Program-made: the position numbers and the translations under genes | The notes under the pieces: generated by a model | What the model was told of the DNA's origin: nothing | What the model saw: the letters and a program-made list of their open reading frames with translations, nothing else | Databases searched by the model: none | Assembly: GCA_002421665.1 (NCBI GenBank) | Contig: DISH01000006.1 | Coordinates: 84,879 to 148,878 of the forward strand | From: Candidatus Omnitrophica bacterium UBA6215 | GTDB taxonomy: Bacteria > Omnitrophota > Gorgyraeia > Pluralincolimonadales > Pluralincolimonadaceae | Direction: 5' to 3' | Length of the DNA stretch: 64,000 bases | Part shown: piece by piece, positions 6,395 through 59,610 of the stretch | Position numbering within the stretch: the first letter of the stretch is position 1 | Layout: each line of letters starts with the position of its first letter

Positions 6395-6415
6395 CTTTCA
6401 CCTCCGGTATGGATT

Positions 6416-6492
6416 TGGTGGCGGCGATCCGAATTGAACGGATGACATAGCGGGTATGAGCCGCTCGCTCTAACCATCTGAGCTACGCCGCC
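6416..6492 (-). tRNA. tRNA with CAU anticodon (elongator Met or lysidine-modified Ile2), encoded 3' CCA
   Basis: The minus-strand sequence GGCGGCGTAGCTCAGATGGTTAGAGCGAGCGGCTCATACCCGCTATGTCATCCGTTCAATTCGGATCGCCGCCACCA folds as a cloverleaf with a 7-bp acceptor stem, a GCTC/GAGC D-stem, an AGCGG/CCGCT anticodon stem and a GTTCAATTC T-loop. A paired G1:C72 excludes an initiator tRNA. Confidence 0.8.
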
Positions 6493-6557
6493 ATCATATT
6501 ATTTTGCGGGATAAGCTCGATTATATTATCACAAAAACCCGCATTTGGCAACAGGGT

Positions 6558-42211: not shown

Positions 42212-42213
42212 TC

Positions 42214-43851: not shown

Positions 43852-43894
43852 ATGGCTTGCGTATTATTCTATAAAATTAATCCCGGGTTGTCAA

Positions 43895-45088
43895 TTATTT
43901 TCGCGCGCGCTCTAATCTTTGGCACTCTACCATATTTTCGAAGGAATCTTGTTTGATCTGCCCGTCCTTTGAAAAATCATTGGCGATCGAAAAACAAAAA
44001 TAGGCCGTCTTTGCCTTTTCGCCTTTCTCCGGCTGTTTAAGCCTCCCTGCCTTCTTCAGGAGGTCTTCTCCCTGTTTGAAGTACCGGCCGCTCAAGTCGC
44101 TTATATATGACTGGTCCTGCATCCTTAACATATAACCTGTTATGAGAGCATGGCGGGCATCGCTGGAAGGTTCGGGTCTTGTATCAAAAAACCTCTTAAT
44201 GGCGTCCCGGGCTTTCGAATCCGCCATCTTCCTGACCTGCCCTCCGGATGAAGCAGCAACAATATCGTAACATGCGACCGCAGCGATGTAATAGCCGCTC
44301 TTCCTGTCCTTGTCAACTTCTTCGGCGCGCTCTTCGTAATCTATCCCCCTGTTGATGCACTTAATAAAATATGCCTGCTTGCATTCATCCGTATCCATGT
44401 GGGAAAGGACCGATTGCATCTCCTCGGCGGCAAAAACTATTTCAGGCGGCTCCTGTAAATTGTCAAGGATCTTCGATGCCCTGAAATTCCCCCAGATCTT
44501 AGTTATCAGGCCCCTGGACCTTCCCGCATAAGATGAATCCGGGTAAAGGGAGATCACCGACTTCGCCAACTGTTCGGCCTTATAATATTCGCCCCATTTA
44601 TATTCTGTCTCCGCTACGGCAAATAGTTTTTCGGCCTCTTTTTCCTGCACAACCGCGAGGTCCTTACCCGCTTTCTCTGCAAGTTTGGGATCCAATTCCT
44701 TCGCTATCCTGTAATGCCTGTCTGCCATTTCGAAGAGACCGTTCTCCGGGGTCGCATTGTCATAACACCATTTTGCAAGCTGGAGTTGCGCGGACGCGTC
44801 ATCCGGTTTTATACCATTGACCTTCAAAAAATATATATCCTGTTTTGTATAAAGGTCTTCTTCCCGTATGTCCGATCTTACGACGTTCTTTATCCACGCT
44901 TTCGGGAAAGTGCTTGTCCCCCCGGCCTTGAGCTTTACGGTAACATGGGTATCGCTCTCGTTCACTATCTTGCCGTCCATCTTCCCTCCTCCATCCTTCA
45001 GTTCGATAACATCGGCGGACCCGGCAGGACAAGACAATACCAGGGAAGCTGCCAGCAGGACAAGAACCGGAAAACCGCGACTCGACAT
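43895..45088 (-). CDS. Secreted hypothetical protein with TPR-like helical repeats
   Basis: It has the signal peptide MSSRGFPVLVLLAASLVLSCPAGSA. I recognised no family. Confidence 0.4.
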   Translation of the reverse strand: MSSRGFPVLVLLAASLVLSCPAGSADVIELKDGGGKMDGKIVNESDTHVTVKLKAGGTSTFPKAWIKNVVRSDIREEDLYTKQDIYFLKVNGIKPDDASAQLQLAKWCYDNATPENGLFEMADRHYRIAKELDPKLAEKAGKDLAVVQEKEAEKLFAVAETEYKWGEYYKAEQLAKSVISLYPDSSYAGRSRGLITKIWGNFRASKILDNLQEPPEIVFAAEEMQSVLSHMDTDECKQAYFIKCINRGIDYEERAEEVDKDRKSGYYIAAVACYDIVAASSGGQVRKMADSKARDAIKRFFDTRPEPSSDARHALITGYMLRMQDQSYISDLSGRYFKQGEDLLKKAGRLKQPEKGEKAKTAYFCFSIANDFSKDGQIKQDSFENMVECQRLERARK

Positions 45089-45096
45089 CTCTCCTC

Positions 45097-47610: not shown

Positions 47611-47701
47611 TGCCGCAAAAAATATACCTTATAAAAAATGTTAATTCAAGAGTAAAAAATACCCACGAGGGCATAACAGCATAAAAACATTACGTCGCAG
47701 C

Positions 47702-48601
47702 TTATTTCCTTCTGCCCGCCGCAAAGGCACCGATATCGCCGCGGGAACCGTCGGGGTCGTTATATTGCTTGTCCGGGTCCCCTGAATCTATACATGGAGA
47801 GCCTGCTTTAAGGCTATAATCATCCTTGGACGGGTTCATGAATTTTGGATCCGAAATCAGGTCATGCTCTCCCTTTTTGCAATCGATAAAATCCTTAACA
47901 TCCCAAAATATGTTATACTCCAGCTTAAGATAGACATCTTCACGGGGTTTCTGCCAGTATTTAGCCGCGTCTTTCTCGGATACGTCATTTGGGTTCGCCA
48001 TAATGGGGGGTTTTGTCACGAATATACCTACCCTGTTATTATAGAAGATACTATTCCTTATAGTAAGGTCTATGGGACCCTGCCAAAGCTGCAGCCCGTA
48101 TCCGCCGTTGATGATATCGCAGTTCGAGATGACCGCATTCTCCACCGAGCTTATTTTCAGGCACGTGGATAGGTTCTTCCCCCTCAATATGCAGTTCTTC
48201 ATCTTCAGGCCGTTCATGCCATTGACGGACAGCGGAAATCCGTCAACTTCTATCGTCAGGGCCTCCAGAGTAAGGTTGTTTATACTGCCGTTAACGGAAA
48301 CTATTGACAGGCCTTCCCGGCCCAATTTAATTGTCGTCCTGTCGGCTCCGTGTCCAGCCAAACGGGTATTACCCTTGAAGATCGTGGAGCCGTCCGCAGA
48401 GAAATCCCCCTCGCCCAGAAATATCGTATCGCCCGGCAGCGACTTTTCGCAGGCTTCTTTTATCGTCTTGCAGTCACCCGGAACGCGTATTGTATATTTA
48501 TCTGCGATCGCCGCAATAGAAACCGCATTGACCGCTAAAAAACCCGTCAGGACAGCGGACAACAAACGCATTTTACCCATATCGATAATCTTCCGGTTCA
48601 T
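47702..48601 (-). CDS. Secreted right-handed beta-helix repeat protein (pectin-lyase fold-like)
   Basis: It has a signal peptide, and repeated motifs NCILRGKN...ISNCDIINGGYGLQL...IRNSIFYNNRVGIFV typical of parallel beta-helix repeats. The start may be an internal Met. Confidence 0.5.
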   Translation of the reverse strand: MNRKIIDMGKMRLLSAVLTGFLAVNAVSIAAIADKYTIRVPGDCKTIKEACEKSLPGDTIFLGEGDFSADGSTIFKGNTRLAGHGADRTTIKLGREGLSIVSVNGSINNLTLEALTIEVDGFPLSVNGMNGLKMKNCILRGKNLSTCLKISSVENAVISNCDIINGGYGLQLWQGPIDLTIRNSIFYNNRVGIFVTKPPIMANPNDVSEKDAAKYWQKPREDVYLKLEYNIFWDVKDFIDCKKGEHDLISDPKFMNPSKDDYSLKAGSPCIDSGDPDKQYNDPDGSRGDIGAFAAGRRK

Positions 48602-51453
48602 CGTTGATAGAATACCGTTGTAAAAGGTTTATGGTAGATAACCGTGACATCCGTAAGTACCGGGGTCACGCTGCTCGCCGAATAATCATTTGGATCAAGC
48701 GCGCTCGTTGCCAACAGGGCCTTATACTGGAACTTCCTCCCGGAGATAGCCGAGACCGAGTCTCCGCTTGCATAAGTGGAGACGAAGCTGTCCGAGGACG
48801 ATGCCCTCGCATACATGGTTATCGATGTGCTGGTCGGTATTATAGCATTCCATGTTATGGTATCCCATGATATCCCTGTGTTATCTGTCGGTAATTTCGT
48901 GATCAAAGGAGCCGATACGATATACCCCTTCGGGTATATGATCCTGACGTCATCGAACTGGTTGACGCATTCTGAGTCGGAACCCCACCAATCGGCATTC
49001 CTCTCTGCCAACTCTTCTATGAAAGCATTATTCGCGTGAGTGCTCCAGAACTGGGTAAAATCGGCATAATAAAGGTTATTGCCCCTTAATTTTACCACTC
49101 CTTCTTTTGAAGCACTGCCGGCTACGCGCAGAGCACCCTGCACGAAACCGGAGCCCGCCGAAGTGGTATAAGTATAATAGGGCCTGTAAGACGTCCCTAC
49201 CCCCACGGCTGCCAATATATAATACCGGGAATCATCCGGCCATATCGCATATGTCGCATTCCCTACGATTTTACCGGGCAAATTAGTCTCGTTCATATCC
49301 ACCGAATAAAGATCGTTATCGCCATCCTTCACAAGGGTATAATAGCCCCCGGTGGCTTTGGTCCCCTCGTAAGGCTCCTCCTTAAGAAAGAGATAGCCTG
49401 TTAACCATGAAGGACTGTAAGCGGGGGTGGGCTGTCCCGGGTTCGTCAGGCGCTTGCTCGGGGGTTTATGCCATACCCAGCTACCGGTCTGCTGCTGGCC
49501 GTCATCATAGACATAACATCTGGCAAATATATCATATCCCAACTCGGCGCTTGGGGCGTAATAATTGCCGTTGACTTCTGCGCTCCTCTCTTCGGGATAA
49601 CGCTGGACTGTGGTTCCTTCCACGATATCGGTATAATAACCTTTCATATCAAGCCTCAAGCTGTACGTTCCGTCAAAACCCTGCCTTAGGGAGGTATCGC
49701 CGAAACTCAGGTCCCATCTCGAATCAGTTCCCCAGATCACATCGGTAGGGATGTCGAAAGTCTTGCCATCCGGAAAAGTATAACTTACGGCAGGCGTGAC
49801 TCCCGTGATCTTGGCCAGATATCCGCCTCTCCATGTTACGACACTGTAGGCTACATCGTCATCAAAATCATCCCAATAACCGAGTTTGACAGAATCATAA
49901 CATTTCGTATAACCGGAGGTCTCCCATGCCATGCAGGAACCGTTCCACGAGTCGGCGCTTATAGGGCAGGAGTCCAGCCAGGTTACGTTCCTGACCTCGC
50001 CATCGCTCAGATCTCCGTAATCCGAGAACCAAGCTGCATAAAACTCGGCCCTGGTAGTCTGCGTCATGGTATTAAAAACTTCCACGACGGATACCATCTG
50101 CCTCTCGGCAAGCGTGGAGCCATCCGCCCTCTTCGCTTTACCCGTAGCCACTATTTTGATTATCCCCCCGGAATTGTAATCCGCGCCAAGGGTCGATGCG
50201 GGAACGCGGTCTGATGTGGTCCATTTATCAAGTATCCTGCCGTAATACGAAGTAGGCAGGTAAGCAAAATAATCGGCTGGGACATAATCTTCCGCGCCAA
50301 GGGCATTCCATTTCAGTTCCAAGGTATTCTGGTTCTCATAATTGTAGAAATCGAACCTTATCGGATGCCACCCTCCGCGGGTAAACTTCACGGAACCGCT
50401 GGTAAGCGCTCCGGAACTCCAGGTGCCCATAGACCTCTCCGTCCAATCCGCTATAAGCTGCCTCCCGTCTATAAAAAGCCTGCATCCCTGTTCGCTGCGC
50501 ATCCTGAACGTTATGTCCTGGTTTATCTTGTTATCGGGGATATAGATGAAACCCGTAAATACCATGCCATAGCGTTCCATCCCGTATTTATTTTGCCAGT
50601 CGGTTATGACATATCCCCCGGAAAATTCCGCGTCATGCGCTTCTGCCCACCCCGAATTATCTCCGTCTGTCCCCGGGAAAGTCCCTGAAGGCGGGTATGG
50701 GCTCGAAGCAGCAGCCTTCGCCTCTTTCATAGCACCCAGATCTATGACCTTTCCTGAATAATAATCGAGGGAAAGTATGGTGTCCCTGCTCCAGGTCTCC
50801 CTGCTGTTAGTATAACCTTTGCATATCAGGCCGCCTTGTATTAACGGCGCATATATCGTAATGAGGCCTTTTATGCTATTGTATTTCCCGTCATCCTTGA
50901 GGACCAGACGAACCTCTTCTATAGTGGCAAAGGGCGCATTCTTGGCGTTTGTCTCGTCGCCGGCTGCCGAGACACGACCCGTAGAGGTCAGCAGCTGCGT
51001 CGTTGCGCTGGAGTCCTGGTCGACATAATCGATTATCTTCGCAATATCGTCATAGCTCAGGCCTGCGGCAGCAAGCGTTTCGATCCACGGGTAATCGGTC
51101 TCGTCGATATTGTTGATATTGATCACTTGGTCCTGTCTTTCGACATAAACCTGGCAGCTCCCTCCCGGAAGGTCTACCTCGGTACCGGGAGAAGAATAAT
51201 TTGCCGCTATATCAGCCATTAGCGCGCTGTAACCGTTACTTGCCGCCCAGCTGCGTATTTCCGCAACAGCGCGGTCGATGCCTGCCCGAGCCATCTCCTC
51301 AGCCTGGGTCTGGTTGACGAAATTCTGGACTGCCTTATACTCCATCTGCATGTTTATGGCGAAACTCGTGGCTATCATAGCCACGAGCGCAAGTATGCCT
51401 ACGGCTATTATAAGGGCAACGCCTTTCTTTTGTTTTAAGACCGCCTTATCCAC
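48598..51453 (-). CDS. Giant GspK-like minor pseudopilin (951 aa) carrying a PA14 domain, paralog 1
   Basis: It has the N-terminus KQKKG|VALIIAVGILALVAMIATSF without Glu+5, a GspK-like motif VININNIDETD...NAPFATIEEV, and a PA14-like segment GFIYIPDNKINQDITFRMRSEQGCRLFIDGRQLIADW...WHPIRFDFYNYENQNTLELKW. Confidence 0.6.
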   Translation of the reverse strand: MDKAVLKQKKGVALIIAVGILALVAMIATSFAINMQMEYKAVQNFVNQTQAEEMARAGIDRAVAEIRSWAASNGYSALMADIAANYSSPGTEVDLPGGSCQVYVERQDQVININNIDETDYPWIETLAAAGLSYDDIAKIIDYVDQDSSATTQLLTSTGRVSAAGDETNAKNAPFATIEEVRLVLKDDGKYNSIKGLITIYAPLIQGGLICKGYTNSRETWSRDTILSLDYYSGKVIDLGAMKEAKAAASSPYPPSGTFPGTDGDNSGWAEAHDAEFSGGYVITDWQNKYGMERYGMVFTGFIYIPDNKINQDITFRMRSEQGCRLFIDGRQLIADWTERSMGTWSSGALTSGSVKFTRGGWHPIRFDFYNYENQNTLELKWNALGAEDYVPADYFAYLPTSYYGRILDKWTTSDRVPASTLGADYNSGGIIKIVATGKAKRADGSTLAERQMVSVVEVFNTMTQTTRAEFYAAWFSDYGDLSDGEVRNVTWLDSCPISADSWNGSCMAWETSGYTKCYDSVKLGYWDDFDDDVAYSVVTWRGGYLAKITGVTPAVSYTFPDGKTFDIPTDVIWGTDSRWDLSFGDTSLRQGFDGTYSLRLDMKGYYTDIVEGTTVQRYPEERSAEVNGNYYAPSAELGYDIFARCYVYDDGQQQTGSWVWHKPPSKRLTNPGQPTPAYSPSWLTGYLFLKEEPYEGTKATGGYYTLVKDGDNDLYSVDMNETNLPGKIVGNATYAIWPDDSRYYILAAVGVGTSYRPYYTYTTSAGSGFVQGALRVAGSASKEGVVKLRGNNLYYADFTQFWSTHANNAFIEELAERNADWWGSDSECVNQFDDVRIIYPKGYIVSAPLITKLPTDNTGISWDTITWNAIIPTSTSITMYARASSSDSFVSTYASGDSVSAISGRKFQYKALLATSALDPNDYSASSVTPVLTDVTVIYHKPFTTVFYQR

Positions 51454-51462
51454 TCTATACCT

Positions 51463-52212
51463 CTACTGTACGCGTATGAAATCCGTAAAAGTCCTCTTCT
51501 GGCTCCCGTCGCGGCTTTGTATCGTTATTGAAACCGCTACCGCGTTGGGCAAACCATCCGGGACCTTCGCGTTGTTCCCGTCGTCATAATTCTGGCTGGG
51601 GCTTCCATCAAGGAGGTCCAGTCCGGAATTCCACTCGCTCGCCGTCGTTGCCGGAAGCCCCCCGACGGCGGACTTATAATAATATGTGAACTGCAAGTCC
51701 GTAACATTGCGCGCTATGATATCATCGGAAAAAGTCCCTGAACTGTTGTTTGAAAAATCGTATACCACCGGGACCGTGCTGCCATTAAAATATTCGAAAT
51801 GCCTCATTAGGCAGTTATCGTCACGAAGCCAGTAACCTATTTCGCACAGGTCCTGCATACCGGGGTTATCTTCAACCGGCGCCACAAGGAACAACTCATC
51901 GGCGACAGAACCGGATTTAATTATATAGGTGCCGCCCTTGTCGTTGCCCTGGAACTTTGTCCAATAGCCGGTATTATCCGATTTCTGGTAGAGTACGGCA
52001 GAGGGTATCTCCTTGCGCATAAGTTCCAGCGCGAACCTGGCATTCTGGTATATATCCAGCAATGTCTCGGATTTACGCCATGAATCGAGGGCCCCCCTGA
52101 AGACCGTGAACAGCGATAGAACAACTATAGAGAAGATAACAGAAACTACCAGTATCTCCACAAGGGTGAGTCCTGCCCTGCAGGCCTTTAAATTCTTACC
52201 TGTCCGCGACAT
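51463..52212 (-). CDS. Type IV prepilin-like minor pseudopilin (GspJ/PilW-like)
   Basis: It has a class III signal MSRTGKNLKACRAG|LTLVEILVVSVIF with Glu+5. Confidence 0.6.
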   Translation of the reverse strand: MSRTGKNLKACRAGLTLVEILVVSVIFSIVVLSLFTVFRGALDSWRKSETLLDIYQNARFALELMRKEIPSAVLYQKSDNTGYWTKFQGNDKGGTYIIKSGSVADELFLVAPVEDNPGMQDLCEIGYWLRDDNCLMRHFEYFNGSTVPVVYDFSNNSSGTFSDDIIARNVTDLQFTYYYKSAVGGLPATTASEWNSGLDLLDGSPSQNYDDGNNAKVPDGLPNAVAVSITIQSRDGSQKRTFTDFIRVQ

Positions 52213-52549
52213 TTATGGTAAAACCTCTCTGAAAACTCTTATTGCCCTGCCCCCAGCCGACAGTGCAGATCACCTGCCTTAAATTATCCACGGAGGTAGT
52301 CGAGACCGTCTGGGTCCAGGTATATGCGGGATCTGTGAACGTGCCTGAGGTAGTGCCGAGACTGGGAAAACCGTTGTTCCTTATCCGTTCAAAATGCTCG
52401 TGGGCGAATATCGTGGCCTGGGTGGCGCTTACCGACCTTCGGGCGGAATCGAAACCTATCGGGAAAAGGGACAGTATCCCCACCAGCCCTATCGCGAGGA
52501 TAGAAAGAGAGATGATTATTTCGATGAGGGTAAATCCGCTCCTCTTCAC
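52196..52549 (-). CDS. Type IV prepilin-like minor pseudopilin (GspI-like)
   Basis: It has MKRSG|FTLIEIIISLSILAIGL with Glu+5, and at 117 aa has a GspI-like size. Confidence 0.65.
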   Translation of the reverse strand: MKRSGFTLIEIIISLSILAIGLVGILSLFPIGFDSARRSVSATQATIFAHEHFERIRNNGFPSLGTTSGTFTDPAYTWTQTVSTTSVDNLRQVICTVGWGQGNKSFQRGFTINVADR

Positions 52550-52577
52550 GCTGCGCCCTCGCTTTTACCGGCCCGGC

Positions 52578-53075
52578 TTATCTGGTCCAGTTCGTTACGT
52601 TGTCCGTGCCTCCGACCACCCTGTCCGGACCATACGAAATAATATCGACGTAATAACCGCCGTGCCCTGAAGTATCGGGATTAGTATAAGTCAATGCCGT
52701 GCCCCAGGCATCGATTATCGTGCTGCCTCCGGTAAGGTCATTGTCCTTGAATGTCATATAAGGTCCCGACCAGTTGGTAGTAGGAAGCGTGTAAGTACCG
52801 GTACCTATAACATAGTTACCGGTATTGTTCACAAGGCAGTTATACAAGTTAGTATTGCCGCTTCGCGGATAACCGCCAAGATCAGCCTGGAACATCCCAA
52901 TACCGGTCTCTATCGCGGCTATCATCGCCTTTGTGCGGGCTATCATCGCCTTCTGCCTTGCGGTCTGGGCGGCCGCCGCCACCAATCCCGCCAACAGCAA
53001 TATTATAGTCATGACGACCACAAGTTCTATTATGGTGAAACCTTTCTTCCTGTTCGTCCTAACCATATTAACCAC
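52578..53075 (-). CDS. Major pseudopilin / type IV pilin (GspG-like)
   Basis: It has MVNMVRTNRKKG|FTIIELVVVMTIILLLAGLVAAAA with Glu+5, and a GspG-like length and periplasmic domain. Confidence 0.75.
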   Translation of the reverse strand: MVNMVRTNRKKGFTIIELVVVMTIILLLAGLVAAAAQTARQKAMIARTKAMIAAIETGIGMFQADLGGYPRSGNTNLYNCLVNNTGNYVIGTGTYTLPTTNWSGPYMTFKDNDLTGGSTIIDAWGTALTYTNPDTSGHGGYYVDIISYGPDRVVGGTDNVTNWTR

Positions 53076-54333
53076 CTCCTAAAGCTGTTACGAGCTGGAA
53101 GAGCGGCAAGAACATGGCTATTACTATGAACCCGACTATCATACCCAGCCCGATGATCAAAAACGGCTCTAGCAACGACATCAAACCCGTTACAGTGACA
53201 TCGACCTCTTCATCATATACATCTGCGACCTTCAACAACATCTGGTCCAAGGCACCTGTCTCCTCCCCTACGGAGATCATGTTAACGGCCATCGCCGGGA
53301 AGAGCCCTGCCTTAAGCAGGGGTTTGGCTATCGTCTCCCCTTCCCTTACCGCATCGTGTACCACCACTATGGAACGGGCCATCGCCTCATTGCCGGTAGT
53401 GTCCTTCGAGACCATAAGGGATTGCAATATAGGCACACCGCTTGACAACAGCGTTCCGAGCGTCCTGGAGAAACGGGCGATGGCAATCTTCCTTAACAAC
53501 TGGCCCATTACCGGTATCTCCAACTTACCCTTATCAATCAGAAGTTTTGTCACAGGCAAACTGTATAGGACATTCCATAGGACGATGAGTAATACTACTA
53601 AGCCTATGCCGATATACCATCTGCTCCTCGCAAAATCGCTGACCACAAGGAGGACTTTGGTCATTACCGGAAGTTCTACGTTCATTTCTTTGAATATCTG
53701 CAAAAATTTGGGGACGATAAACGTTATAAGAAAACCCAGTACCGATAGAGCCATGGTAAGAACGAGGGCGGGATAGACCATGGCCGATTTTATCCTTCCC
53801 TCCAATCTTTGGGATTTTTCGGCAAACTCCGCAAGACGGGTAAGTACCACTTCGAGCACACCGCCGGCTTCACCCGCCTTTACCGTATTTACATACAGGG
53901 GCGGGAACGCCTTGGGGAATTTTGAAAGCGCTTCGGAAAAAGAGCTGCCGCCTTCAACCTGCTCGGCAAGCCCGCGGATAGTAGTCTTCAATATCCCCGA
54001 CTTCTCTTGCCTTTCAAGGACATACAAGGCGCGGACAAGGGGCAGACCGGAACCTATAAGGGTAGCCAGCTGCCTGGTAAACACGGTTATCTGCTTGGCG
54101 CTGACACCTCCGAAAGACAGGCTTAAAGCTGATTTCGCCGGCTTGGGGCCGCCGGGTATCTCCCTGTTCCTTAAGGGAGATCCGTCATTTTTATCCTTCT
54201 CTTCATTGATACTTATGGGATAAAGGCCCTTCTGGCGCATCTGCTCCATGGCATCCTGATTGCCGGAAGCCTCGAGCCTGCCTTTACTCTCCTTGCCGTC
54301 CTTGTCTATAGCGACGTAATTGAAGATGGCCAT
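53068..54333 (-). CDS. Inner-membrane platform protein GspF/PilC family
   Basis: It has two T2SF repeats and three TM helices. A strong RBS GGGGGAG precedes the ATG. Confidence 0.85.
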   Translation of the reverse strand: MAIFNYVAIDKDGKESKGRLEASGNQDAMEQMRQKGLYPISINEEKDKNDGSPLRNREIPGGPKPAKSALSLSFGGVSAKQITVFTRQLATLIGSGLPLVRALYVLERQEKSGILKTTIRGLAEQVEGGSSFSEALSKFPKAFPPLYVNTVKAGEAGGVLEVVLTRLAEFAEKSQRLEGRIKSAMVYPALVLTMALSVLGFLITFIVPKFLQIFKEMNVELPVMTKVLLVVSDFARSRWYIGIGLVVLLIVLWNVLYSLPVTKLLIDKGKLEIPVMGQLLRKIAIARFSRTLGTLLSSGVPILQSLMVSKDTTGNEAMARSIVVVHDAVREGETIAKPLLKAGLFPAMAVNMISVGEETGALDQMLLKVADVYDEEVDVTVTGLMSLLEPFLIIGLGMIVGFIVIAMFLPLFQLVTALGGG

Positions 54334-54402: not shown

Positions 54403-56154
54403 CTACATTACGGAAGATTGAGCCTCCTTTAGCACCTCTTCTGCGGTTGTGACCCCGGCGTTTATCTTTTCCAGGCCGTCGTCCAGGAGCGTCTTCATGC
54501 CGTTCTCAATAGCAGCTTTCTTTATAAGGGCTGTATGCGCCTTTTCTATCACAAGCTGCCTTATCTTCTCGTTCAATACAAGGAGTTCGTATATACCCGT
54601 CCTGCCTTTGTAACCCGAATTGTTGCATTTCACGCAACCTGTGCCCCTGTAAAATTTCCTGTTTTTCGCTTCTTCGGGCGCCAGCCCCAGGTCGGATATC
54701 AGTTCGGGTTCCGGGATATACTCTTCCTTGCAGTTCTGGCATATCTTGCGCACAAGCCTCTGGGCGAGCACCGCTTCAAGCGTGGAAGTCACGAGAAATG
54801 GCTCGACGCCCATATCGATCAACCTCGTGATGGTTCCTGCTGCGTCGTTGGTATGCAACGTAGAGAAGACCAAATGTCCGGTAAGGGAAGCCTGTATCGC
54901 TATCTGTGCGGTCTCGGCATCCCTTATCTCGCCTACCATTATTATATCGGGATCCTGCCTTAATATATGGCGAAGGGACGTGGCGAATGTAAGGCCTATC
55001 TTAGCATTTATCGGGACCTGTATTACACCCTTAAGGTCGTACTCAACAGGATCCTCGGTCGTGATAACTTTATATTCTATTTTGTTTATCTCCCTCATGC
55101 ATCCATATAATGTAGTGGTCTTGCCGCAACCGGTCGGCCCGGTAGTAAGGAATATGCCGTTGGGTTTGACTATTATGCTCCTTATCCTCTTCTTGGTTTC
55201 ATCGAGCATCCCGACCTCGTCTATGGAAAGGCTTACCGTCGTCCTGTCGAGGACCCTCATGACGATGCTCTCACCGAATATCGTAGGCAAAGTAGATATA
55301 CGCAGGTCCACGCTCTTGCCTTCTATCGTGACCATGATGCGCCCGTCCTGCGGAAGGCGGCGCTCGGCTATATCAAGGTTCGCCATGACCTTTATCCTGG
55401 ATGACAGGCCGAGGCTAAGGTTCTTCGGAGGCCTGGCTACCTCGTAAAGGACGCCGTCCACCCTGTACCTTATCCTGTAATCTTGTTCGAAAGGCTCGAA
55501 ATGTATGTCGGATGCCTTCTCCCTGACCCCCTGGAGAAGTATCATATTAAGGAGCTTGATTACGGGGGCGCGTGAAGCAAGCTCCTGGAGTGTAGCTATG
55601 TCATTTATCTCTTCTCCCTCAGGGACAAGCTCCATCTTCTCGCCAAAGACGCCGAGGACGTCCTGTATCGTCTCGCCCTCGGAACCGTAATACCTCTGTA
55701 TCTGCTCCTTTATCTCCTCGTCGCTGGCAACCACACCCTTTATGTTCATCCCGAGGGTAAACCTCAGGTCGTCAAAAGCGGCTACATTTAGCGGGTCCGC
55801 TATGGCTATCGAAAGCTGGTTGCCTTCAACAGAAACCGGGAGGATGGTATATATCTTCGCAACGGAAGCCGGGACCTTGTCAATGACCTCCTTAGGGATC
55901 TTCATGTCCTTGAGCCTGACCACAGAGAACCCGGACCGCGCCCCCAGCAGCTGCAGGATATCGTCTTCCTTGACGATACCCATATCGACGAATATCCTTC
56001 CTAGAAGCTTGCCGGTAAGCTTCTGCTCTTCCAGAGCCTGCTCGAGCTGGCGTTCGTTTATCATCCCCTTCTCAAGGAGAAGCTGGCCTATCCGCTTGTA
56101 TTTTTCCTGTTTAGGTTGCTCTTTTTCGGCAGCCATACCTATATTACTCCTCAT
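54403..56154 (-). CDS. GspE/PilB-family secretion ATPase 2 with an N-terminal MshEN-type domain
   Basis: It has the Walker A motif TGPTGCGKTTTLY and a tetracysteine CQNC...CVKC. Its N-terminal RIGQLLLEKGMINERQLEQALEEQ matches the 24-residue MshEN c-di-GMP-binding consensus. Confidence 0.9.
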   Translation of the reverse strand: MRSNIGMAAEKEQPKQEKYKRIGQLLLEKGMINERQLEQALEEQKLTGKLLGRIFVDMGIVKEDDILQLLGARSGFSVVRLKDMKIPKEVIDKVPASVAKIYTILPVSVEGNQLSIAIADPLNVAAFDDLRFTLGMNIKGVVASDEEIKEQIQRYYGSEGETIQDVLGVFGEKMELVPEGEEINDIATLQELASRAPVIKLLNMILLQGVREKASDIHFEPFEQDYRIRYRVDGVLYEVARPPKNLSLGLSSRIKVMANLDIAERRLPQDGRIMVTIEGKSVDLRISTLPTIFGESIVMRVLDRTTVSLSIDEVGMLDETKKRIRSIIVKPNGIFLTTGPTGCGKTTTLYGCMREINKIEYKVITTEDPVEYDLKGVIQVPINAKIGLTFATSLRHILRQDPDIIMVGEIRDAETAQIAIQASLTGHLVFSTLHTNDAAGTITRLIDMGVEPFLVTSTLEAVLAQRLVRKICQNCKEEYIPEPELISDLGLAPEEAKNRKFYRGTGCVKCNNSGYKGRTGIYELLVLNEKIRQLVIEKAHTALIKKAAIENGMKTLLDDGLEKINAGVTTAEEVLKEAQSSVM

Positions 56155-57856
56155 AGCCGTGCGTGATGCGCACGACCTCAGAAATCGTCGTTATGCCTTC
56201 CCTTACCTTATTAAGGCCGTCTTCCCTCAGGAGCTTCATGCCGCTGCGGCGAGCGGCTTCCCTTATCTCCTGCGAAGAAAGCCTTTTTACTATCATCTCG
56301 CGTATCTCGTCATTATTGACCAGCAGCTCAAATATTCCGATCCTTCCTTTGTATCCGGTATAATTACACATTTTGCATCCTTTACCCCTGAACAGCTGCA
56401 TTTCTTCGACGGCCTTCGGGTCGCCGGACTTCTGTCCCAGGAGATACAATTCTTCGTAGGAAGGTTTATAGGGCTCCTTGCAGTTCTGGCATATCTTGCG
56501 CACAAGCCTCTGGGCCATGACCGCCTGGACCGTAGAGCTGACGAGATATGACTTTACACCCATATCTATGAGCCGGGTAAATGCGCCGGCGGCATCGTTG
56601 GTATGCAGAGTACTGAAAAGAAGATGCCCCGTAAGGGCAGCCTGTATGGCTATAGACGCGGTCTCAAAATCACGGATCTCGCCGACCATTATTACATCGG
56701 GCGCCTGCCTGAGCATGGTCCTTAATCCCGAGGCGAAGGTGAGTCCTATCGAGGGCCGTACATGGACCTGATTTATGCCCGAGATCTGGTACTCGACCGG
56801 GTCTTCTACCGTTATAAGTTTTTTATTGGGTTTATTTATATAGCTAAGGGCCGCATAAAGCGTCGTTGTCTTTCCGCTTCCGGTAGGGCCCGTAATAAGC
56901 AACATGCCGTACGGCAGGTGTATCAGTTTCTCGAAAGTCTCTGCATCCTCATGGAGGAACCCGAGCTCGGCAAGGCCAAGCATAAAACTGGACTTATCGA
57001 GGATCCTCATGACCACGCTCTCCCCGTATATAGCCGGAAGCGTGGAGACGCGCAGGTCAAGGTCCTTGCCCATGCCTTGTATCCTTATCCTGCCGTCCTG
57101 CGGCAGGCGCTTCTCGGCTATATTCATGCCCGCCATGATCTTAAGACGGCTCAATATGGAAGGTTGCAGCTGTTTCGGGGGGCCGGGAACTTCGTGCAAT
57201 ACGCCGTCTATCCTGTACCTCACGCGGAACTTGTCTTCAAGCGGCTCAACATGTATATCGGAAGCGCGGTTCTTTACGGCTTCGGATATTATCTGGGTAA
57301 CAAGCTTTATTATGGGCGCTTCATCCTTTTCTTCTTCTTTCACGACTTCAGCCGCGACGCCTTTAAAAGATACCGTCGCGTTGTCGTCCTGTTTCTGCGC
57401 AACGGCATCCAGTATGTTCTTGCTTCCTCCGTAATGTTTCTCAAGCGCTATGTTTATGTTCGATTCGGAGCTAAAAACAAAATCGATCTTCGAGCCTATA
57501 AACGTTTCAAGGTTGTCCTGGGCCAGAAGGTTAATGGGATCATCCGTTGCAATGGTCAGGATATCATTCTCGAATTTGATGGGAACCAACTTGTGGCGGT
57601 ATGCTAATGCCGGTTTTACCTTGGAAAGGATATCGAAGGGGATTTCCATATCGAATATAGGGGCGCGGACAAGGGAAAACTCCTGGATTATAAGATCTCT
57701 GAGCTGTTCGGTCTGGAGGAACCCTATGCCGTTGAGGATATCGGAAAGACGGTTTCCGGAATCAAGCTGCGATTTCAGGACACTCTTTAATTGGGATTCG
57801 TCAAGTATCCCTATCGACTTGAGGTATTCGCCTATAAGCCTGCTTCTATTGATCAA
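56144..57856 (-). CDS. GspE/PilB-family secretion ATPase 1 with an N-terminal MshEN-like domain
   Basis: It has the Walker A motif TGPTGSGKTTTLY and a tetracysteine CQNC...CKMC. It starts at a TTG preceded by the RBS AAGGGGGAGAG. Its N-terminal RLIGEYLKSIGILDESQLKSVLKSQ resembles the MshEN motif with one inserted residue. Confidence 0.9.
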   Translation of the reverse strand: MINRSRLIGEYLKSIGILDESQLKSVLKSQLDSGNRLSDILNGIGFLQTEQLRDLIIQEFSLVRAPIFDMEIPFDILSKVKPALAYRHKLVPIKFENDILTIATDDPINLLAQDNLETFIGSKIDFVFSSESNINIALEKHYGGSKNILDAVAQKQDDNATVSFKGVAAEVVKEEEKDEAPIIKLVTQIISEAVKNRASDIHVEPLEDKFRVRYRIDGVLHEVPGPPKQLQPSILSRLKIMAGMNIAEKRLPQDGRIRIQGMGKDLDLRVSTLPAIYGESVVMRILDKSSFMLGLAELGFLHEDAETFEKLIHLPYGMLLITGPTGSGKTTTLYAALSYINKPNKKLITVEDPVEYQISGINQVHVRPSIGLTFASGLRTMLRQAPDVIMVGEIRDFETASIAIQAALTGHLLFSTLHTNDAAGAFTRLIDMGVKSYLVSSTVQAVMAQRLVRKICQNCKEPYKPSYEELYLLGQKSGDPKAVEEMQLFRGKGCKMCNYTGYKGRIGIFELLVNNDEIREMIVKRLSSQEIREAARRSGMKLLREDGLNKVREGITTISEVVRITHGYEE

Positions 57857-57887
57857 AGCCCGACTCTCTCCCCCTTATATTTCACGA

Positions 57888-57905
57888 GCGCCGCGGACGC
57901 GGCGC
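57888..57905. promoter_or_regulatory. Perfect GC-rich inverted repeat GCGCCGCG-GA-CGCGGCGC in the leader of the pilus ATPase operon (candidate operator)
   Basis: It is an 8-bp perfect palindrome with a 2-nt spacer, about 30 nt upstream of the ATPase-1 RBS and just downstream of the HTH-TM gene. No U-tract follows it. Confidence 0.3.
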
Positions 57906-57995
57906 AATCACCATGCTCCGGAGAAACAGTTTTCACCTTGTCCTCAAACAACCCAAGCTTTACCCTTATATTACCACATTTTGTATTTACTTCAA

Positions 57996-58391
57996 CTATT
58001 TCCTGGTAATAATGAACACCGTCAAAAGCACTATCAGGATAAAGACGAGGATATAGAAATCGTTCAGATAAACAAAATCCCTGACTTTATCGAAAAGCGA
58101 ATACCTTTGCCTGCTTTCGGGCTCACTCGTCGGGGAGAGATGGTAGATGGGGACGGACTGGTGTTTTAGCACCTTAAGGCGGCTCTTAAGGGCCGCGACC
58201 TGCCCCTTCCTGAGCCTTACGAACTCCCCTCCTATCCTGTAGGCCGGGATCTTGCCTTCGGCCACAAAAGACTTTACATCTTCCTCGTCCAACTCGAGTA
58301 TGCTTGCAGCTTCCTCGATGGTTATAAGCCTTTCGCGGTCGCTTTTCCCGTCCGGAGCTCTATTTAATTCTCTCCGAGCTGATCCATTCAT
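57996..58391 (-). CDS. Membrane-anchored HTH (excisionase/MerR-type HTH_17-like) DNA-binding protein
   Basis: It has LITIEEAASILELDEEDVKSFVAEGKIPAYRIGGEFVRL (helix-turn-helix) and a C-terminal TM helix FYILVFILIVLLTVFII. Confidence 0.5.
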   Translation of the reverse strand: MNGSARRELNRAPDGKSDRERLITIEEAASILELDEEDVKSFVAEGKIPAYRIGGEFVRLRKGQVAALKSRLKVLKHQSVPIYHLSPTSEPESRQRYSLFDKVRDFVYLNDFYILVFILIVLLTVFIITRK

Positions 58392-58899
58392 CTATTTTCG
58401 CTTTGTCAAAATGAAGTTTATCGCCTTCCCTGATAGACGGAAGTTTTCCGTTAGACGCCCAATCCGACACGACGGAGACATCCACTTCCAGATACCTGGC
58501 GACCTCATCCGTATCCATCAACTGCGCTCCGGATTGGGAAACGCTCTTTATCCCGGAAGTCATCTGGCAGTTCCCGTTCAAGACGGAACCCTTGCCCACC
58601 TCAAGGAGGGGAGTGCGTATATTGCCGTCCACCCTGGCTGGTGAAATAAGCTTCAGGGATTTCTTCGCGATCACTTCGCCCGTTACCCGGCCGGCTATCG
58701 TGATCTCGTCACCGGTTATATTGGCATTGACGAAAGCCTTCTCTCCTATGGTCAAAGTCCCCTTCGTGTCCAGGGTACCTTCGAACCTGCCGTTTATCTG
58801 CAGGTTCACGGGGTCTTTGAACGACATGGTGCCTTGCATGCTGGCGTCTACGTCCAATACCTTCTCTTCCACCTTCTTGTTCTTGCCTATCATCGCCAA
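58360..58899 (-). CDS. Bactofilin fused to a C-terminal HTH_17-like DNA-binding domain
   Basis: It has the bactofilin beta-helical repeats ...DGNIRTPLLEVGKGSVLNGNCQMT (cf. BacM ...GNIHTPRLTIEEGAVFNGNIRM). The C-terminus reads DTDEVARYLEVDVSVVSDWASNGKLPSIREGDKLHF. Confidence 0.65.
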   Translation of the reverse strand: MAMIGKNKKVEEKVLDVDASMQGTMSFKDPVNLQINGRFEGTLDTKGTLTIGEKAFVNANITGDEITIAGRVTGEVIAKKSLKLISPARVDGNIRTPLLEVGKGSVLNGNCQMTSGIKSVSQSGAQLMDTDEVARYLEVDVSVVSDWASNGKLPSIREGDKLHFDKAKIDEWISSERIK

Positions 58900-58929
58900 G
58901 CACCCCCCTTTCCGTTATCGGATATCTTT

Positions 58930-59610
58930 TTAGATATCCGACATTACCTTCCAGTCCGCCCTTGCCACGCCCTTGAGTTGGCGTATCTTGGAGATTATCT
59001 CATTATCATATTCGTTGCTTAAAAGCTTGAGGTTTATCCTTAGGACCATCCCCTCGCAACCCTGTATCCTTTTGGCGTCAAAATCCTTTATCTCAATATC
59101 ATATTCCGAAAGTACGTCGCGTATCTCCTCTAACCTGACAACCCCGCCCGGGACCTCTATCTCGAGCGATTTATACCAATCCTTGCGTATCATTATCTTT
59201 TCCACCCTGTTGAGGAAAAAGAGAGTGGCAAGCACTATGGCTGTAGCGGCGGCCGCAGGAGCAAAAACCCCGGCGCCGACTGCAAGGCCTATACCTGCCA
59301 CGGTCCAAAGGCTTGCGGCGGTCGTAAGCCCTCTTACCGATGCCTTGAACCTGATTATGGTACCGGCACCCAGAAAACCTATGCCGCTTACTACCTGCGC
59401 GGCTATCCGGCCAGGATCGGGGGTAGAAAGCCCCCTGTATATATCGAATATATGCATGGATGTCAGCATTATAAGGGTAGAACCCACGCCTACGAGTATA
59501 TGGGTCCTGAAACCCGCAAGCCTCCCGTGTATCTCGCGCTCATATCCCACCAACCCGCTCAGAAAAGCGGCAAGACATAACCGTATGATCATCTCGTAAT
59601 CGGAAAGCAT
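58930..59610 (-). CDS. mgtC: MgtC/SapB family membrane protein
   Basis: It has the MgtC N-terminal TM domain IIRLCLAAFLSGLVGYEREIHGRLAGFRTHILV and a C-terminal ACT-like domain. Confidence 0.8.
   Translation of the reverse strand: MLSDYEMIIRLCLAAFLSGLVGYEREIHGRLAGFRTHILVGVGSTLIMLTSMHIFDIYRGLSTPDPGRIAAQVVSGIGFLGAGTIIRFKASVRGLTTAASLWTVAGIGLAVGAGVFAPAAAATAIVLATLFFLNRVEKIMIRKDWYKSLEIEVPGGVVRLEEIRDVLSEYDIEIKDFDAKRIQGCEGMVLRINLKLLSNEYDNEIISKIRQLKGVARADWKVMSDI

What the first reader, a model, noticed from the sequence alone, without database searches (positions are those of the whole stretch)
57996..58899. Bactofilin-HTH fusion next to a membrane-anchored HTH protein, immediately upstream of the pilus operon
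The 179-aa protein has a canonical bactofilin beta-helix core (...DGNIRTPLLEVGKGSVLNGNCQMT) followed by a helix-turn-helix resembling excisionase/MerR-type HTH_17. The next gene encodes a similar HTH followed by a C-terminal TM anchor. I am not aware of polymer-forming bactofilins with intrinsic sequence-type DNA-binding domains being described. The pair could tether DNA to a membrane-associated filament or regulate the downstream pilus genes. The two genes overlap by 32 nt.
Basis: partly seen in the sequence, partly recalled or inferred. Interest (0 to 1): 0.6.

Follow-up and report, generated by a model that had tools for sequence, protein, structure and literature searches.

The report
Bactofilin–winged-helix gene pair of Omnitrophota
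A filament-forming cytoskeletal protein (bactofilin) with a built-in helix-turn-helix domain, always followed by a membrane-anchored helix-turn-helix protein, is real and conserved across the uncultured phylum Omnitrophota, but it looks like a core cell-organisation module, not a pilus regulator, and its helix-turn-helix lacks the residues that related proteins use to read DNA.

Summary
Gene A (58360-58893, minus strand, 177 aa from its ATG) is a bactofilin beta-helix joined by a 12-residue linker to a BldC/RacA-like winged helix (HTH_17). Gene B (57996-58391) is an HTH_17 winged helix, a disordered linker and a C-terminal membrane helix. The genes overlap by 32 nt. The pair occurs in at least 561 species-level genomes. 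Every named source among the best hits is Omnitrophota. It sits in a housekeeping block, gatCAB-ctpA-tsaD-mgtC-A-B-larB-larC. The A-B pair persists even where the flanks differ, so A-B is the unit. Pilus/T2SS-like ATPases lie downstream in only 15 of 66 loci. In 14 of those, larB (with or without larC) intervenes. Only the window and its closest relative have lost larBC. A's recognition helix is acidic. The arginine that BldC needs for DNA binding is Glu/Asp in 74 of 82 family members and never Lys/Arg, so sequence-specific DNA reading by A is doubtful. B keeps more basic residues. My best reading is a membrane-bound bactofilin scaffold whose winged helix couples it to the tail-anchored partner and perhaps to DNA. 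I found no paper describing the fusion. I rate it a new variant of a known kind, of moderate interest.

The parts
58360..58893 (-). Gene A: bactofilin-winged-helix fusion, 177 aa from the ATG at 58893 (the ORF list extends it to a TTG at 58899)
   Evidence: A conserved SD-ATG spacing, a non-conserved TTG and 177-aa homologues all point to the ATG.
58903..58913 (-). Shine-Dalgarno sequence GGAAAGGGGGG of gene A, about 20 nt after the mgtC stop
   Evidence: The GGGGGTG core is conserved in seven relatives. No room for a dedicated promoter or operator is evident.
58873..58893 (-). N-terminal peptide MIGKNKK. It resembles the bactofilin membrane-targeting sequence consensus MFSKKKK.
   Evidence: Family N-termini are mostly M-(L/I/M)-G-K-x-K-K; the fourth residue is K/R in 68 of 82. 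The consensus is from PMC12448750. The peptide is disordered in the model. Membrane binding itself is inferred.
58561..58860 (-). Bactofilin beta-helix core (residues 14-113 of the 179-aa ORF)
   Evidence: Pfam PF04519, E 3.1e-23. AF2 pLDDT is 82-93. Foldseek: BacA 2n3d TM 0.84; Thermus bactofilin 6rib TM 0.89, rmsd 1.6 A. The equivalent of BacA F130 (polymerisation) is position 107: L54, F22, I5, V1 of 82.
58522..58560 (-). Flexible linker (residues 114-126)
   Evidence: pLDDT is below 50 for residues 116-125. Mean pairwise identity is 0.15 and length varies from 3 to 17 residues across the family.
58363..58521 (-). C-terminal winged helix-turn-helix (residues 127-179), BldC/RacA-like fold with an acidic recognition helix
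   Evidence: HTH_17, 38.6 bits. Foldseek: BldC 6ama/6amk TM 0.75-0.81, rmsd 1.3-1.5 A, 35% identity. Position 146 (BldC Arg30) is E56, D18 and no K/R; E138 is present in 80 of 82. Mean net charge is -2.0.
58360..58391 (-). 32-nt overlap of A and B. It is specific to this clade; elsewhere the genes are roughly 0-140 nt apart.
57996..58391 (-). Gene B: tail-anchored winged-helix protein, 131 aa
58182..58328 (-). B winged helix-turn-helix (residues 22-70), a paralogue of A's
   Evidence: HTH_17, 29.1 bits. It is 35% identical to A's HTH over 34 residues, E 2e-6. R59 is invariant and positions 61 and 62 are R/K in 69 and 52 of 70. The Arg30-equivalent position is R/K in 34 of 70.
58098..58181 (-). 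B disordered linker (residues 71-98)
   Evidence: pLDDT is below 50 for residues 76-95. Mean identity is 0.15 and length varies from 12 to 49 residues.
58053..58097 (-). B juxtamembrane aromatic motif (R/K)DF(F/L)YFNDFY (residues 99-113), the most conserved part of B
   Evidence: D105 and F112 are invariant; Y108 is 70 of 70. Mean identity is 0.63. The region is helical in the model. No Pfam or NCBIfam family covers it.
58002..58061 (-). B C-terminal transmembrane helix (residues 111-130) ending in basic residues
   Evidence: pLDDT is 85-93. A hydrophobic tail is present in 73 of 81 loci under a strict motif. It is also present in divergent forms in L068, L089 and L093.

Best explanation
A and B form a two-protein, membrane-associated cytoskeletal module that is a core, phylum-specific feature of Omnitrophota.

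Proposed mechanism:
- A is a genuine bactofilin. Its beta-helix polymerises end to end, and its basic-hydrophobic N-terminal peptide holds the polymer on the inner face of the cytoplasmic membrane.
- Other bactofilins carry a short, poorly conserved C-terminal tail. Each A subunit instead displays a folded, conserved BldC-type winged helix on a ~12-residue tether.
- B is inserted in the membrane by its C-terminal helix. It displays a paralogous winged helix on a 12-49-residue tether.
- BldC-type winged helices have no dimerisation domain and associate head to tail. A's recognition helix is acidic. I therefore propose that A's winged helix is mainly a docking module. It would couple the filament to B's more basic winged helix, and through B to the membrane and possibly to DNA. 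It would not act as a sequence-specific DNA reader.
- The module serves general cell organisation (envelope, nucleoid or division-site positioning), not pilus gene regulation.

Shown: domain folds, family-wide conservation, obligate A-B pairing, synteny, and loss of the DNA-reading residues in A.
Inferred: polymerisation, membrane binding, A-B contact, and the cellular role.
For: Architecture:
- Pfam hits and AF2 models.
- Foldseek matches to BacA and Thermus bactofilin for the N-terminal domain, and to BldC, RacA and Xis for the C-terminal domain. No solved chain covers both.

Polymer and membrane features:
- The F130-equivalent position is always hydrophobic.
- The N-terminus resembles the MFSKKKK membrane-targeting consensus.

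Core-gene status:
- 1189 A and 1354 B homologues, all named ones from Omnitrophota.
- At least 561 species genomes, including complete 1.14-Mb and 1.43-Mb genomes.
- Conserved position after gatCAB-ctpA-tsaD-mgtC, with only ~20-100 nt before A.

A-B is the unit:
- B follows A in 73 of 81 loci by a strict motif. By tblastn it does so in all but one of the other eight, and in that one, L068, by reading the sequence.
- The pair persists where the flanks differ: L089 downstream, L093 on both sides.

Both winged helices are under selection (mean identity ~0.5) while the linkers are not (0.15).

A's helix is not a canonical DNA reader:
- BldC contacts are K26, T27, T29, R30, W31, K33, H46, R47, R48, and R30A or H46E abolish binding.
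- A keeps only W147 and R/K163. Position 146 is E/D in 74 of 82. E138 is present in 80 of 82.
- Net charge is -2.0, against +6 for BldC and about +8 (my hand count) for a stand-alone HTH_17 protein of an Omnitrophota genome.
- The distant fusion subfamily (P0197) has E at the Arg30 position too.

Precedent:
- Membrane-bound client proteins help anchor bactofilins (PbpC).
- B. subtilis bactofilins bind the HTH regulator BacR, with a modelled interface near its HTH motif.
Against: - Nothing here tests A-B contact directly. A mutual-information and charge-correlation test on 70 A-B pairs was uninformative (rho 0.09, p 0.45).
- Every characterised protein matched by the C-terminal domain binds DNA.
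- Both wings keep basic residues (A: K/R157, R/K163, R/K166; B: R59, R/K61, K/R62), so backbone or minor-groove DNA binding cannot be excluded.
- B's winged helix is modelled with only moderate confidence (pLDDT 55-71).
- Polymerisation and membrane binding are inferred from sequence.
- The cellular process served is unknown.
Confidence: 0.45

Rival explanations
1. Direct DNA-to-membrane tether. Both winged helices bind DNA, cooperatively and with low specificity, and a multivalent A filament plus membrane-anchored B attaches the nucleoid or a chromosomal region to the membrane. This would be one polypeptide doing what RacA-DivIVA or BacNOP-PadC-ParB do with several. It is the first reader's main idea.
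For: - The nearest structural relatives of the C-terminal domain are BldC, which forms cooperative head-to-tail filaments on DNA, and the chromosome-anchoring protein RacA.
- Wing basic residues are retained in A and B.
- Multivalency on a polymer could compensate for weak single-site affinity.
- There is no dedicated promoter or operator region upstream of A, which fits a structural role better than a regulatory one.
- A distant fusion subfamily lies beside ParA-like and actin-like genes.
Against: - A's recognition helix has no conserved basic residue.
- The Arg30 equivalent is acidic in 90% of members. RacA also uses this arginine for base contacts.
- E138 and D/E140 add negative charge to what is the DNA-facing side in BldC.
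- The domain is net negative.
- B's recognition helix starts with a conserved S-E-E-E.
Confidence: 0.25
2. Regulatory switch of the BacR type. One winged helix, most likely B's, is a transcription factor whose access to DNA is controlled by sequestration at the membrane or filament, as B. subtilis BacE/F sequester BacR.
For: - BacR (DUF4004, N-terminal HTH) is encoded with bactofilins. It is recruited by them to the membrane, and its DNA binding is blocked by them.
- B keeps the Arg30-equivalent as R/K in 34 of 70 members and has an invariant wing arginine.
Against: - B is permanently membrane-anchored and A is covalently fused, so no release step is evident. No protease gene was seen beside A-B; ctpA, an S41 protease gene, lies three genes upstream in the window.
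- No conserved intergenic operator region accompanies the pair.
- Neither protein matches DUF4004 in the Pfam scan.
- The only palindrome nearby is not conserved.
Confidence: 0.15
3. Pilus/T2SS-specific factor. The pair regulates or spatially positions the downstream type IV pilus/T2SS-like machinery. From my own knowledge, not checked here: Myxococcus BacP acts with SofG to position PilB and PilT.
For: - In the window B is followed after 139 nt by two PilB/GspE ATPases and pilin genes.
- PilB-type genes lie within 4.1 kb downstream in 15 of 66 loci.
- In another clade (L003, L006) a pilin-like gene directly follows B.
Against: - In 14 of those 15 loci larB (and usually larC) lies between B and pilB.
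- In 39 of 66 loci the next gene is larB and no pilus ATPase follows within the sequence held.
- The pair is linked at least as tightly to upstream housekeeping genes.
- The association can be explained by inherited synteny.
Confidence: 0.07
4. Remnant of a mobile element or defence system: an excisionase-type HTH, or a MADS-like HTH protein.
For: - JGI names some members 'excisionase family DNA binding protein'.
- NCBIfam gives a sub-threshold hit to antiphage MADS1, 37 bits.
Against: - The MADS1 score is far below its cut-off of 80.
- The pair keeps a stable chromosomal position among housekeeping genes across most of the loci examined, with no integrase or defence genes nearby.
Confidence: 0.02

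Closest known systems
Canonical bactofilins (Caulobacter BacA, Thermus thermophilus bactofilin)
   Same: The same beta-helix core by HMM and predicted fold, a hydrophobic polymerisation-interface residue, and an MTS-like N-terminal peptide.
   Different: Their C-terminal tails are short, disordered and poorly conserved (PMC12448750). Here the tail is a folded, conserved winged helix. The gene is always paired with a tail-anchored HTH partner.
BacR (YhbD, DUF4004) with bactofilins BacE/BacF of Bacillus subtilis (PMC13649987)
   Same: An HTH protein functionally and genetically coupled to bactofilins. The HTH protein is held at the membrane. The modelled interface lies near the HTH motif, and DNA binding and bactofilin binding are mutually exclusive.
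   Different: BacR is a separate, soluble DUF4004 protein that can move to the nucleoid. Here one HTH is covalently fused to the bactofilin and the other is permanently membrane-anchored. No DUF4004 match was found. The phylum is different.
BldC of Streptomyces (PDB 6AMA/6AMK)
   Same: It is the best structural and sequence match for A's C-terminal domain (35% identity, rmsd ~1.4 A). It is a minimal winged helix without a dimerisation domain.
   Different: BldC is basic (+6) and reads DNA with K26, R30, K33, H46, R47 and R48. A has S/N/G, E/D, N/S/D, variable, W and R/K at these positions. The NCBIfam BldC subfamily score is 26 bits against a cut-off of 77.
RacA-DivIVA chromosome anchoring (B. 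subtilis), PDB 5I41/5I44
   Same: A MerR-like winged helix linked to a membrane-associated scaffold. It is a structural match of the C-terminal domain.
   Different: RacA is a separate protein with a coiled coil that binds DivIVA. It uses the Arg30-equivalent arginine for base contacts, and A lacks that arginine.
BacNOP-PadC-ParB of Myxococcus xanthus (PMC5703909)
   Same: A bactofilin scaffold organising chromosome-associated proteins.
   Different: The link to DNA is indirect, through an adaptor (PadC) bound to a long disordered bactofilin tail and through ParB/parS. No ParB-like domain is present here.

Membership tests
Bactofilin (Pfam PF04519 / DUF583) | Sequence match to the family HMM above the gathering score | tested here: met
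   82.3 bits against 27.9, residues 14-112 covering profile positions 2-98 of 98.
Bactofilin (Pfam PF04519 / DUF583) | Right-handed beta-helix fold like BacA or Thermus bactofilin | tested here: met
   In the AF2 model, pLDDT is 82-93 over the core. TM scores are 0.84 and 0.89 to 2n3d and 6rib. This is a predicted structure, not a solved one.
Bactofilin (Pfam PF04519 / DUF583) | Hydrophobic residue at the C-terminal polymerisation interface (BacA F130) | tested here: met
   Position 107 is L54, F22, I5, V1 of 82.
Bactofilin (Pfam PF04519 / DUF583) | N-terminal membrane-targeting sequence (consensus MFSKKKK) | tested here: inconclusive
   MIGKNKK in the window. M-(L/I/M)-G-K-x-K-K is common in the family, and the fourth residue is K/R in 68 of 82. 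This rests on resemblance only, and some start codons are uncertain.
Bactofilin (Pfam PF04519 / DUF583) | Nucleotide-independent polymerisation into filaments | not testable with these tools
   Needs purified protein and EM.
HTH_17 / excisionase-type winged helix (PF12728, TIGR01764) | HMM match above the cut-off, and a winged-helix fold | tested here: met
   A: 38.6 bits against 27, and 32.5 against 28.8. B: 29.1 against 27, and 31.5 against 28.8. The fold matches BldC, RacA and Xis.
BldC family of DNA-binding regulators (NCBIfam NF033787) | Score above the subfamily cut-off | tested here: not met
   A scores 26.2 bits and B 12.9 bits against a cut-off of 77.
BldC family of DNA-binding regulators (NCBIfam NF033787) | DNA-reading residues (Arg30 and His46 essential; Lys26, Lys33, Arg47, Arg48) | tested here: not met
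   For A, the Arg30 position is E/D in 74 of 82 and never K/R. The Lys26 position is S/N/G/A/T, the Lys33 position is N/S/D, and the Arg47 position is W. Only Trp31 and Arg48 are kept. For B, the Arg30 position is R/K in 34 of 70 and the Arg48 position is invariant R: partly kept.
BldC family of DNA-binding regulators (NCBIfam NF033787) | Binds DNA | not testable with these tools
   Needs EMSA or fluorescence polarisation with the isolated domains.
BacR / DUF4004 bactofilin regulators | DUF4004 domain | tested here: not met
   No DUF4004 hit for A or B in the Pfam scan at E up to 0.1.
MADS antiphage system protein MAD1 (NF047737) | Score above the equivalog cut-off, and a defence-gene context | tested here: not met
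   37.4 and 21.5 bits against a cut-off of 80. The context is housekeeping genes.
Type IV pilus / T2SS-like operon component | Conserved genetic linkage to the pilus ATPase and pilin genes | tested here: not met
   PilB lies downstream in 15 of 66 loci and directly after B only in L009 and the window. larB follows B in 39 of 66.

The most novel reading that the evidence does not exclude
Omnitrophota use a nucleotide-independent polymer as a direct nucleoid or chromosome organiser. Bactofilin filaments studded with winged helices, stapled to the membrane by a tail-anchored paralogue, would bind DNA (A and B together, or B alone) and tether or partition the chromosome. This would be a one-operon alternative to scaffold-adaptor-ParB systems, retained even in ~1.1-Mb genomes.
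Probability: 0.2. Interest if true: 0.8.

Novelty: new variant of a known kind. Interest (0 to 1): 0.55.

Why it matters
Bactofilins are known as scaffolds that recruit clients through the core domain or through disordered tails. A bactofilin with a folded, conserved C-terminal winged helix and an obligate membrane-anchored partner, present throughout a whole phylum of ultra-small uncultured bacteria, would be a new way of building a bactofilin system.

- If the winged helix is a protein-docking module, it shows a DNA-binding fold re-used as a cytoskeletal adaptor.
- If it binds DNA, it is the first direct bactofilin-DNA link.

Either outcome can be tested in vitro with two small proteins. It would also give a first handle on cell organisation in Omnitrophota. 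The fused arrangement parallels the recently described BacR-BacE/F interaction in Bacillus, which suggests that HTH-bactofilin coupling may be a recurrent theme.

Tried and rejected
- Palindrome 57888-57905 as a binding site. It is a single occurrence in the window, absent from all 88 related loci, and mutated in the closest relative L009. It lies ~20 nt upstream of the pilB1 Shine-Dalgarno sequence, and no terminator-like site was called there. Rejected as part of the A-B module.
- AT-rich hairpin at the mgtC stop (58920-58939). It is not conserved in relatives.
- TTG at 58899 as the start of A. Rejected in favour of the ATG at 58893.
- Inter-protein covariation. Mutual information with APC correction, plus a net-charge correlation, between the A and B winged helices in 70 paired sequences. 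The top pairs are clade markers, rho = 0.09, p = 0.45. Uninformative.
- Magnetosome idea for the distant fusion subfamily in L091. The MamF_MmsF Pfam hit is on a partial ORF, the MamK score is 21 bits against a cut-off of 400, and no magnetosome family scored near its cut-off in the NCBIfam scan. Not supported.
- A first attempt to scan genomes with the 27-sequence alignment failed for lack of a conserved stretch. It was repeated with 11 sequences.
- 'Plain' bactofilins 55-60% identical to A in the representative library (P0138, P0139, P0146, P0149). Their C-terminal sequences look like frameshifted or chimeric versions of the same family, not true unfused paralogues. I did not verify this at DNA level.
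- No second bactofilin or HTH_17 copy was found in the window by tblastn.
Full report
**1. Checking the observation**

The two ORFs exist as described on the minus strand: 58360-58899 (179 aa) and 57996-58391 (131 aa). They overlap by 32 nt.

- The first ORF matches Pfam Bactofilin (residues 14-112, E 3.1e-23) and HTH_17 (residues 127-175, E 1.3e-9). Both scores are above the gathering cut-offs.
- The second ORF matches HTH_17 (residues 22-68) just above its cut-off. TIGR01764 'excise' supports both.
- The true start of the first gene is the ATG at 58893, giving 177 aa. A G-rich Shine-Dalgarno sequence is conserved at the right distance from the ATG in seven relatives. The TTG is not conserved. 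The close homologues are 177 aa.
- Downstream lie two GspE/PilB-type ATPases with MshEN domains, a PilC/GspF protein, several prepilin-type proteins, a 951-aa PA14 protein and a PilM-PilN fusion. 'Upstream of a pilus or T2SS-like operon' is therefore true for this window.

**2. Structure**

An AlphaFold2 model of protein A (mean pLDDT 79) has four parts:

- a disordered N-terminal peptide (residues 1-13);
- a beta-helix (14-113, pLDDT 82-93);
- a disordered linker (116-125);
- a compact winged helix (127-178).

Foldseek against the PDB matches the N-terminal domain to Caulobacter BacA (TM 0.84) and Thermus bactofilin (TM 0.89, rmsd 1.6 A). It matches the C-terminal domain to Streptomyces BldC (TM 0.75-0.81, rmsd 1.3-1.5 A, 35% identity). 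RacA, mycobacteriophage Xis and RdfS follow. No solved chain covers both domains.

Protein B is modelled less confidently (mean pLDDT 62). It has a winged helix (22-76), a disordered linker (76-95), a short helix (99-109) and a confident C-terminal membrane helix (111-130).

**3. Distribution**

- Protein A has 1189 homologues in the 5.8-billion-protein collection. All of the best 120 carry both domains and are 176-188 aa. Every named one is from Omnitrophota.
- In the library clustered at 50% identity there are only about 25 full-length clusters before plain bactofilins take over.
The best 80 are all Omnitrophota, or MAGs labelled 'uncultured Planctomycetia' that carry the same locus. They include complete genomes of 1.14 and 1.43 Mb.
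- Protein B has 1354 homologues with the same taxonomic labels.
- A divergent fusion subfamily (P0197, ~26% identity, 11 clusters) is also from Omnitrophota.

**4. Gene context**

Across 88 loci the conserved order is (rsmA)-gatC-gatA-gatB-ctpA-(polysaccharide deacetylase)-tsaD-(mgtC)-A-B-larB-larC-(PDZ protein)-(HAMP protein).

- B follows A in 73 of 81 loci by a strict test: an HTH ORF ending in the aromatic motif plus a hydrophobic tail.
- In all but one of the other eight loci tblastn still finds B just after A. In that one, L068, direct reading finds it.
- Two divergent lineages keep the A-B pair although their surroundings differ. L093 (35% identity) has a SPOR-domain protein and a PDZ/TPR protein upstream. 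L089 keeps the upstream block but lacks mgtC and has different genes downstream.
- The unit is therefore A-B. A begins only ~20-100 nt after the preceding gene, so it is probably co-transcribed with housekeeping genes and has no operator region of its own.

**5. The pilus link**

- Of 66 loci with at least 3 kb beyond A, 39 have larB directly after B. Fifteen have PilB-type ATPases downstream.
- In 14 of those 15, larB (with or without larC) lies between B and pilB. Only L009, the closest relative (97% identity), shares the window's arrangement.
- The window lineage has thus lost larBC from this position, which brought B next to pilB1.
- In one other clade (L003, L006) a pilin-like gene follows B.
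- The association is real in part of the phylum. It can be explained by inherited synteny, and it is no tighter than the link to tsaD or gatCAB.

**6. Is the helix-turn-helix a DNA reader?**

According to the BldC paper (PMC5859096):

- Lys26 and Arg30 make the base contacts.
- Thr27, Thr29, Trp31 and Lys33 contact phosphates.
- His46, Arg47 and Arg48 dock the wing in the minor groove.
- R30A and H46E abolish binding.
- RacA uses the equivalent arginine.

HMM alignments place A's S142, V143, S145, D146, W147 and S149 at BldC positions 26, 27, 29, 30, 31 and 33. In 82 distinct family members:

| A position | BldC equivalent | Residues found |
|---|---|---|
| 146 | Arg30 | E56, D18, N4, S2, Q1, T1; never K/R |
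| 142 | Lys26 | S/N/G/A/T |
| 149 | Lys33 | N/S/D |
| 138 | Arg22 | E in 80 of 82 |

- The recognition helix has a mean net charge of -1.5 and the whole domain -2.0. The same region of BldC is +6.
- A stand-alone HTH_17 protein from an Omnitrophota genome (L001) is strongly basic (about +8 by my hand count) and has Lys at the Arg30 position. The acidity is therefore not a compositional bias of the phylum.
- The distant P0197 subfamily also has Glu at that position.
- A does keep Trp31 and the Arg48 equivalent, plus basic residues at 157 and 166.
- B is intermediate. Its recognition helix begins S-E-E-E. Position 40 is K/R in 54 of 70, the Arg30 equivalent is R/K in 34 of 70, and the wing has an invariant arginine followed by two mostly basic positions.
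- Both winged helices are conserved (mean pairwise identity ~0.5). Both linkers are not (0.15). The most conserved part of B is the juxtamembrane motif (R/K)DF(F/L)YFNDFY (0.63).

**7. Bactofilin features**

- The residue equivalent to BacA F130, whose mutation blocks polymerisation (PMC12448750), is always hydrophobic in the family.
- The N-terminus (MIGKNKK here; M-L-G-K-x-K-K in many relatives) resembles the global membrane-targeting consensus MFSKKKK.
- The same paper notes that bactofilin C-terminal tails are usually short and poorly conserved. It also notes that a bitopic membrane client (PbpC) can substitute for the membrane-targeting sequence. That is a useful precedent for a role of B.

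**8. Interpretation**

The most economical reading is a phylum-specific, core cytoskeletal module:

- a membrane-bound bactofilin polymer displays winged helices;
- it works with a tail-anchored protein that displays a paralogous winged helix (35% identity).

A's recognition surface is acidic and B's wing is basic, and BldC-type domains self-associate head to tail. I therefore favour the view that A's winged helix is chiefly a docking module for B, or for another basic partner. Any DNA contact would come mainly from B (confidence 0.45).

The rivals, in order:

- a direct DNA-membrane tether (0.25);
- a BacR-like regulatory switch (0.15);
- a pilus-specific role (0.07);
- a mobile-element or defence remnant (0.02).

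No test available here addresses A-B contact or DNA binding directly. A covariation test was uninformative.

**9. Comparison with what is known, and novelty**

- The protein is a member of the bactofilin family by every feature I could test. It is a member of the HTH_17 superfamily by HMM and by fold.
- It fails the tests for the BldC subfamily (score and DNA-reading residues), DUF4004/BacR and MADS1.
- The closest functional analogue is B. subtilis BacR with BacE/F (PMC13649987). There, bactofilins hold a separate HTH regulator at the membrane and block its DNA binding.
- Searches combining bactofilin with helix-turn-helix, DNA-binding domain, HTH_17/excisionase/PF12728 or Omnitrophota found no description of the fusion.
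- Databases label the proteins only generically: 'polymer-forming cytoskeletal protein' or 'excisionase family DNA binding protein'.
- I rate it a new variant of a known kind, with interest 0.55. This is lower than it would be if DNA binding or a pilus link were supported. It stays above ordinary because of the phylum-wide conservation, the obligate partner with an undescribed conserved motif, and easy in-vitro testability.

Noticed in passing
L091 1-6850 (JGI 3300009777, Ga0105164_10002154); fusion gene at 6001-6567: A divergent bactofilin-HTH_17 subfamily (P0197/P0281, ~26% identity to A, also Omnitrophota, 11 clusters) is not followed by a B-like gene. It lies downstream of an actin-like protein (366 aa), a ParA-family ATPase with a C-terminal AMPK1_CBM domain (465 aa) and several unannotated proteins. 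This is a possible positioning or segregation cluster. A MamF_MmsF Pfam hit on a partial ORF suggested magnetosome genes, but MamK scores only 21 bits against a cut-off of 400.
   Followed up: partly
L092 768-1529 (Logan SRR8797412 contig): P0161 is a bactofilin of the same subfamily (N-terminus IDVTANMQGTISFSDPVNLRIQG...) fused to a PilZ domain instead of the winged helix. It sits next to a hybrid histidine kinase, a sigma-54 activator response regulator and a single-domain response regulator. This suggests that this bactofilin core accepts different C-terminal adaptor domains.
   Followed up: partly
window 57857-57995 compared with L010, L012, L015, L016, L019, L022-L025: In close relatives larB (AIRC, ~249 aa) and larC (Ni_insertion, ~400 aa) lie between B and pilB1. 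The window and L009 lack them at this position, which indicates a recent deletion or relocation of the lar genes.
   Followed up: yes
window 57888-57905: Perfect GC-rich palindrome GCGCCGCG-TC-CGCGGCGC in the leader of pilB1, ~20 nt upstream of its Shine-Dalgarno sequence. It is unique in the window, absent from 88 related loci, and has substitutions in one arm and in the centre in the closest relative L009. A promoter-like TTGAAG-16 nt-TAATAT lies just after the stop of B (noted by eye; the minus-strand scan did not call it).
   Followed up: yes
window 54403-57856: Two tandem GspE/PilB-type ATPases (570 and 583 aa), each with an MshEN domain, head the pilus/T2SS-like operon. The tandem pair recurs in all 15 related loci that have the operon.
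   Followed up: partly
window 41447-54333: The rest of the operon encodes PilC/GspF, a GspG-like pseudopilin, two further prepilin-motif proteins, a 951-aa PA14-domain protein, a 299-aa beta-helix protein, an 837-aa protein with a weak T2SSK match, and a PilM-PilN fusion. Two ORFs (397 and 254 aa) have no Pfam match.
   Followed up: no
L003 9069-9599; L006 9145-9600: In one Omnitrophota clade a type IV pilin-like gene (GFTLVE prepilin motif, 151-176 aa) directly follows B, then a ~950-990-aa TPR protein and polA.
   Followed up: partly
P0185 (417 aa, from the representative library): A protein made of seven tandem HTH_17 repeats. Five of the seven have K/R at the BldC Arg30 position.
   Followed up: no
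L009, L023, L025, L036 and other loci titled 'MAG TPA_asm: uncultured Planctomycetia bacterium': These third-party MAGs carry the Omnitrophota-type A-B locus with up to 97% protein identity to the window. Their 'Planctomycetia' label is probably a placeholder or a misassignment.
   Followed up: no
window 58920-58939: AT-rich inverted repeat GGATATC-TAAAAA-GATATCC spanning the mgtC stop codon, just upstream of A's ribosome-binding site. It is not conserved in relatives.
   Followed up: yes
L001 12734-12931: A stand-alone 65-aa HTH_17 protein, strongly basic (about +8 over the domain by hand count) with Lys at the Arg30 position. I used it as an in-phylum control for a 'normal' DNA-binding HTH_17.
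   Followed up: partly
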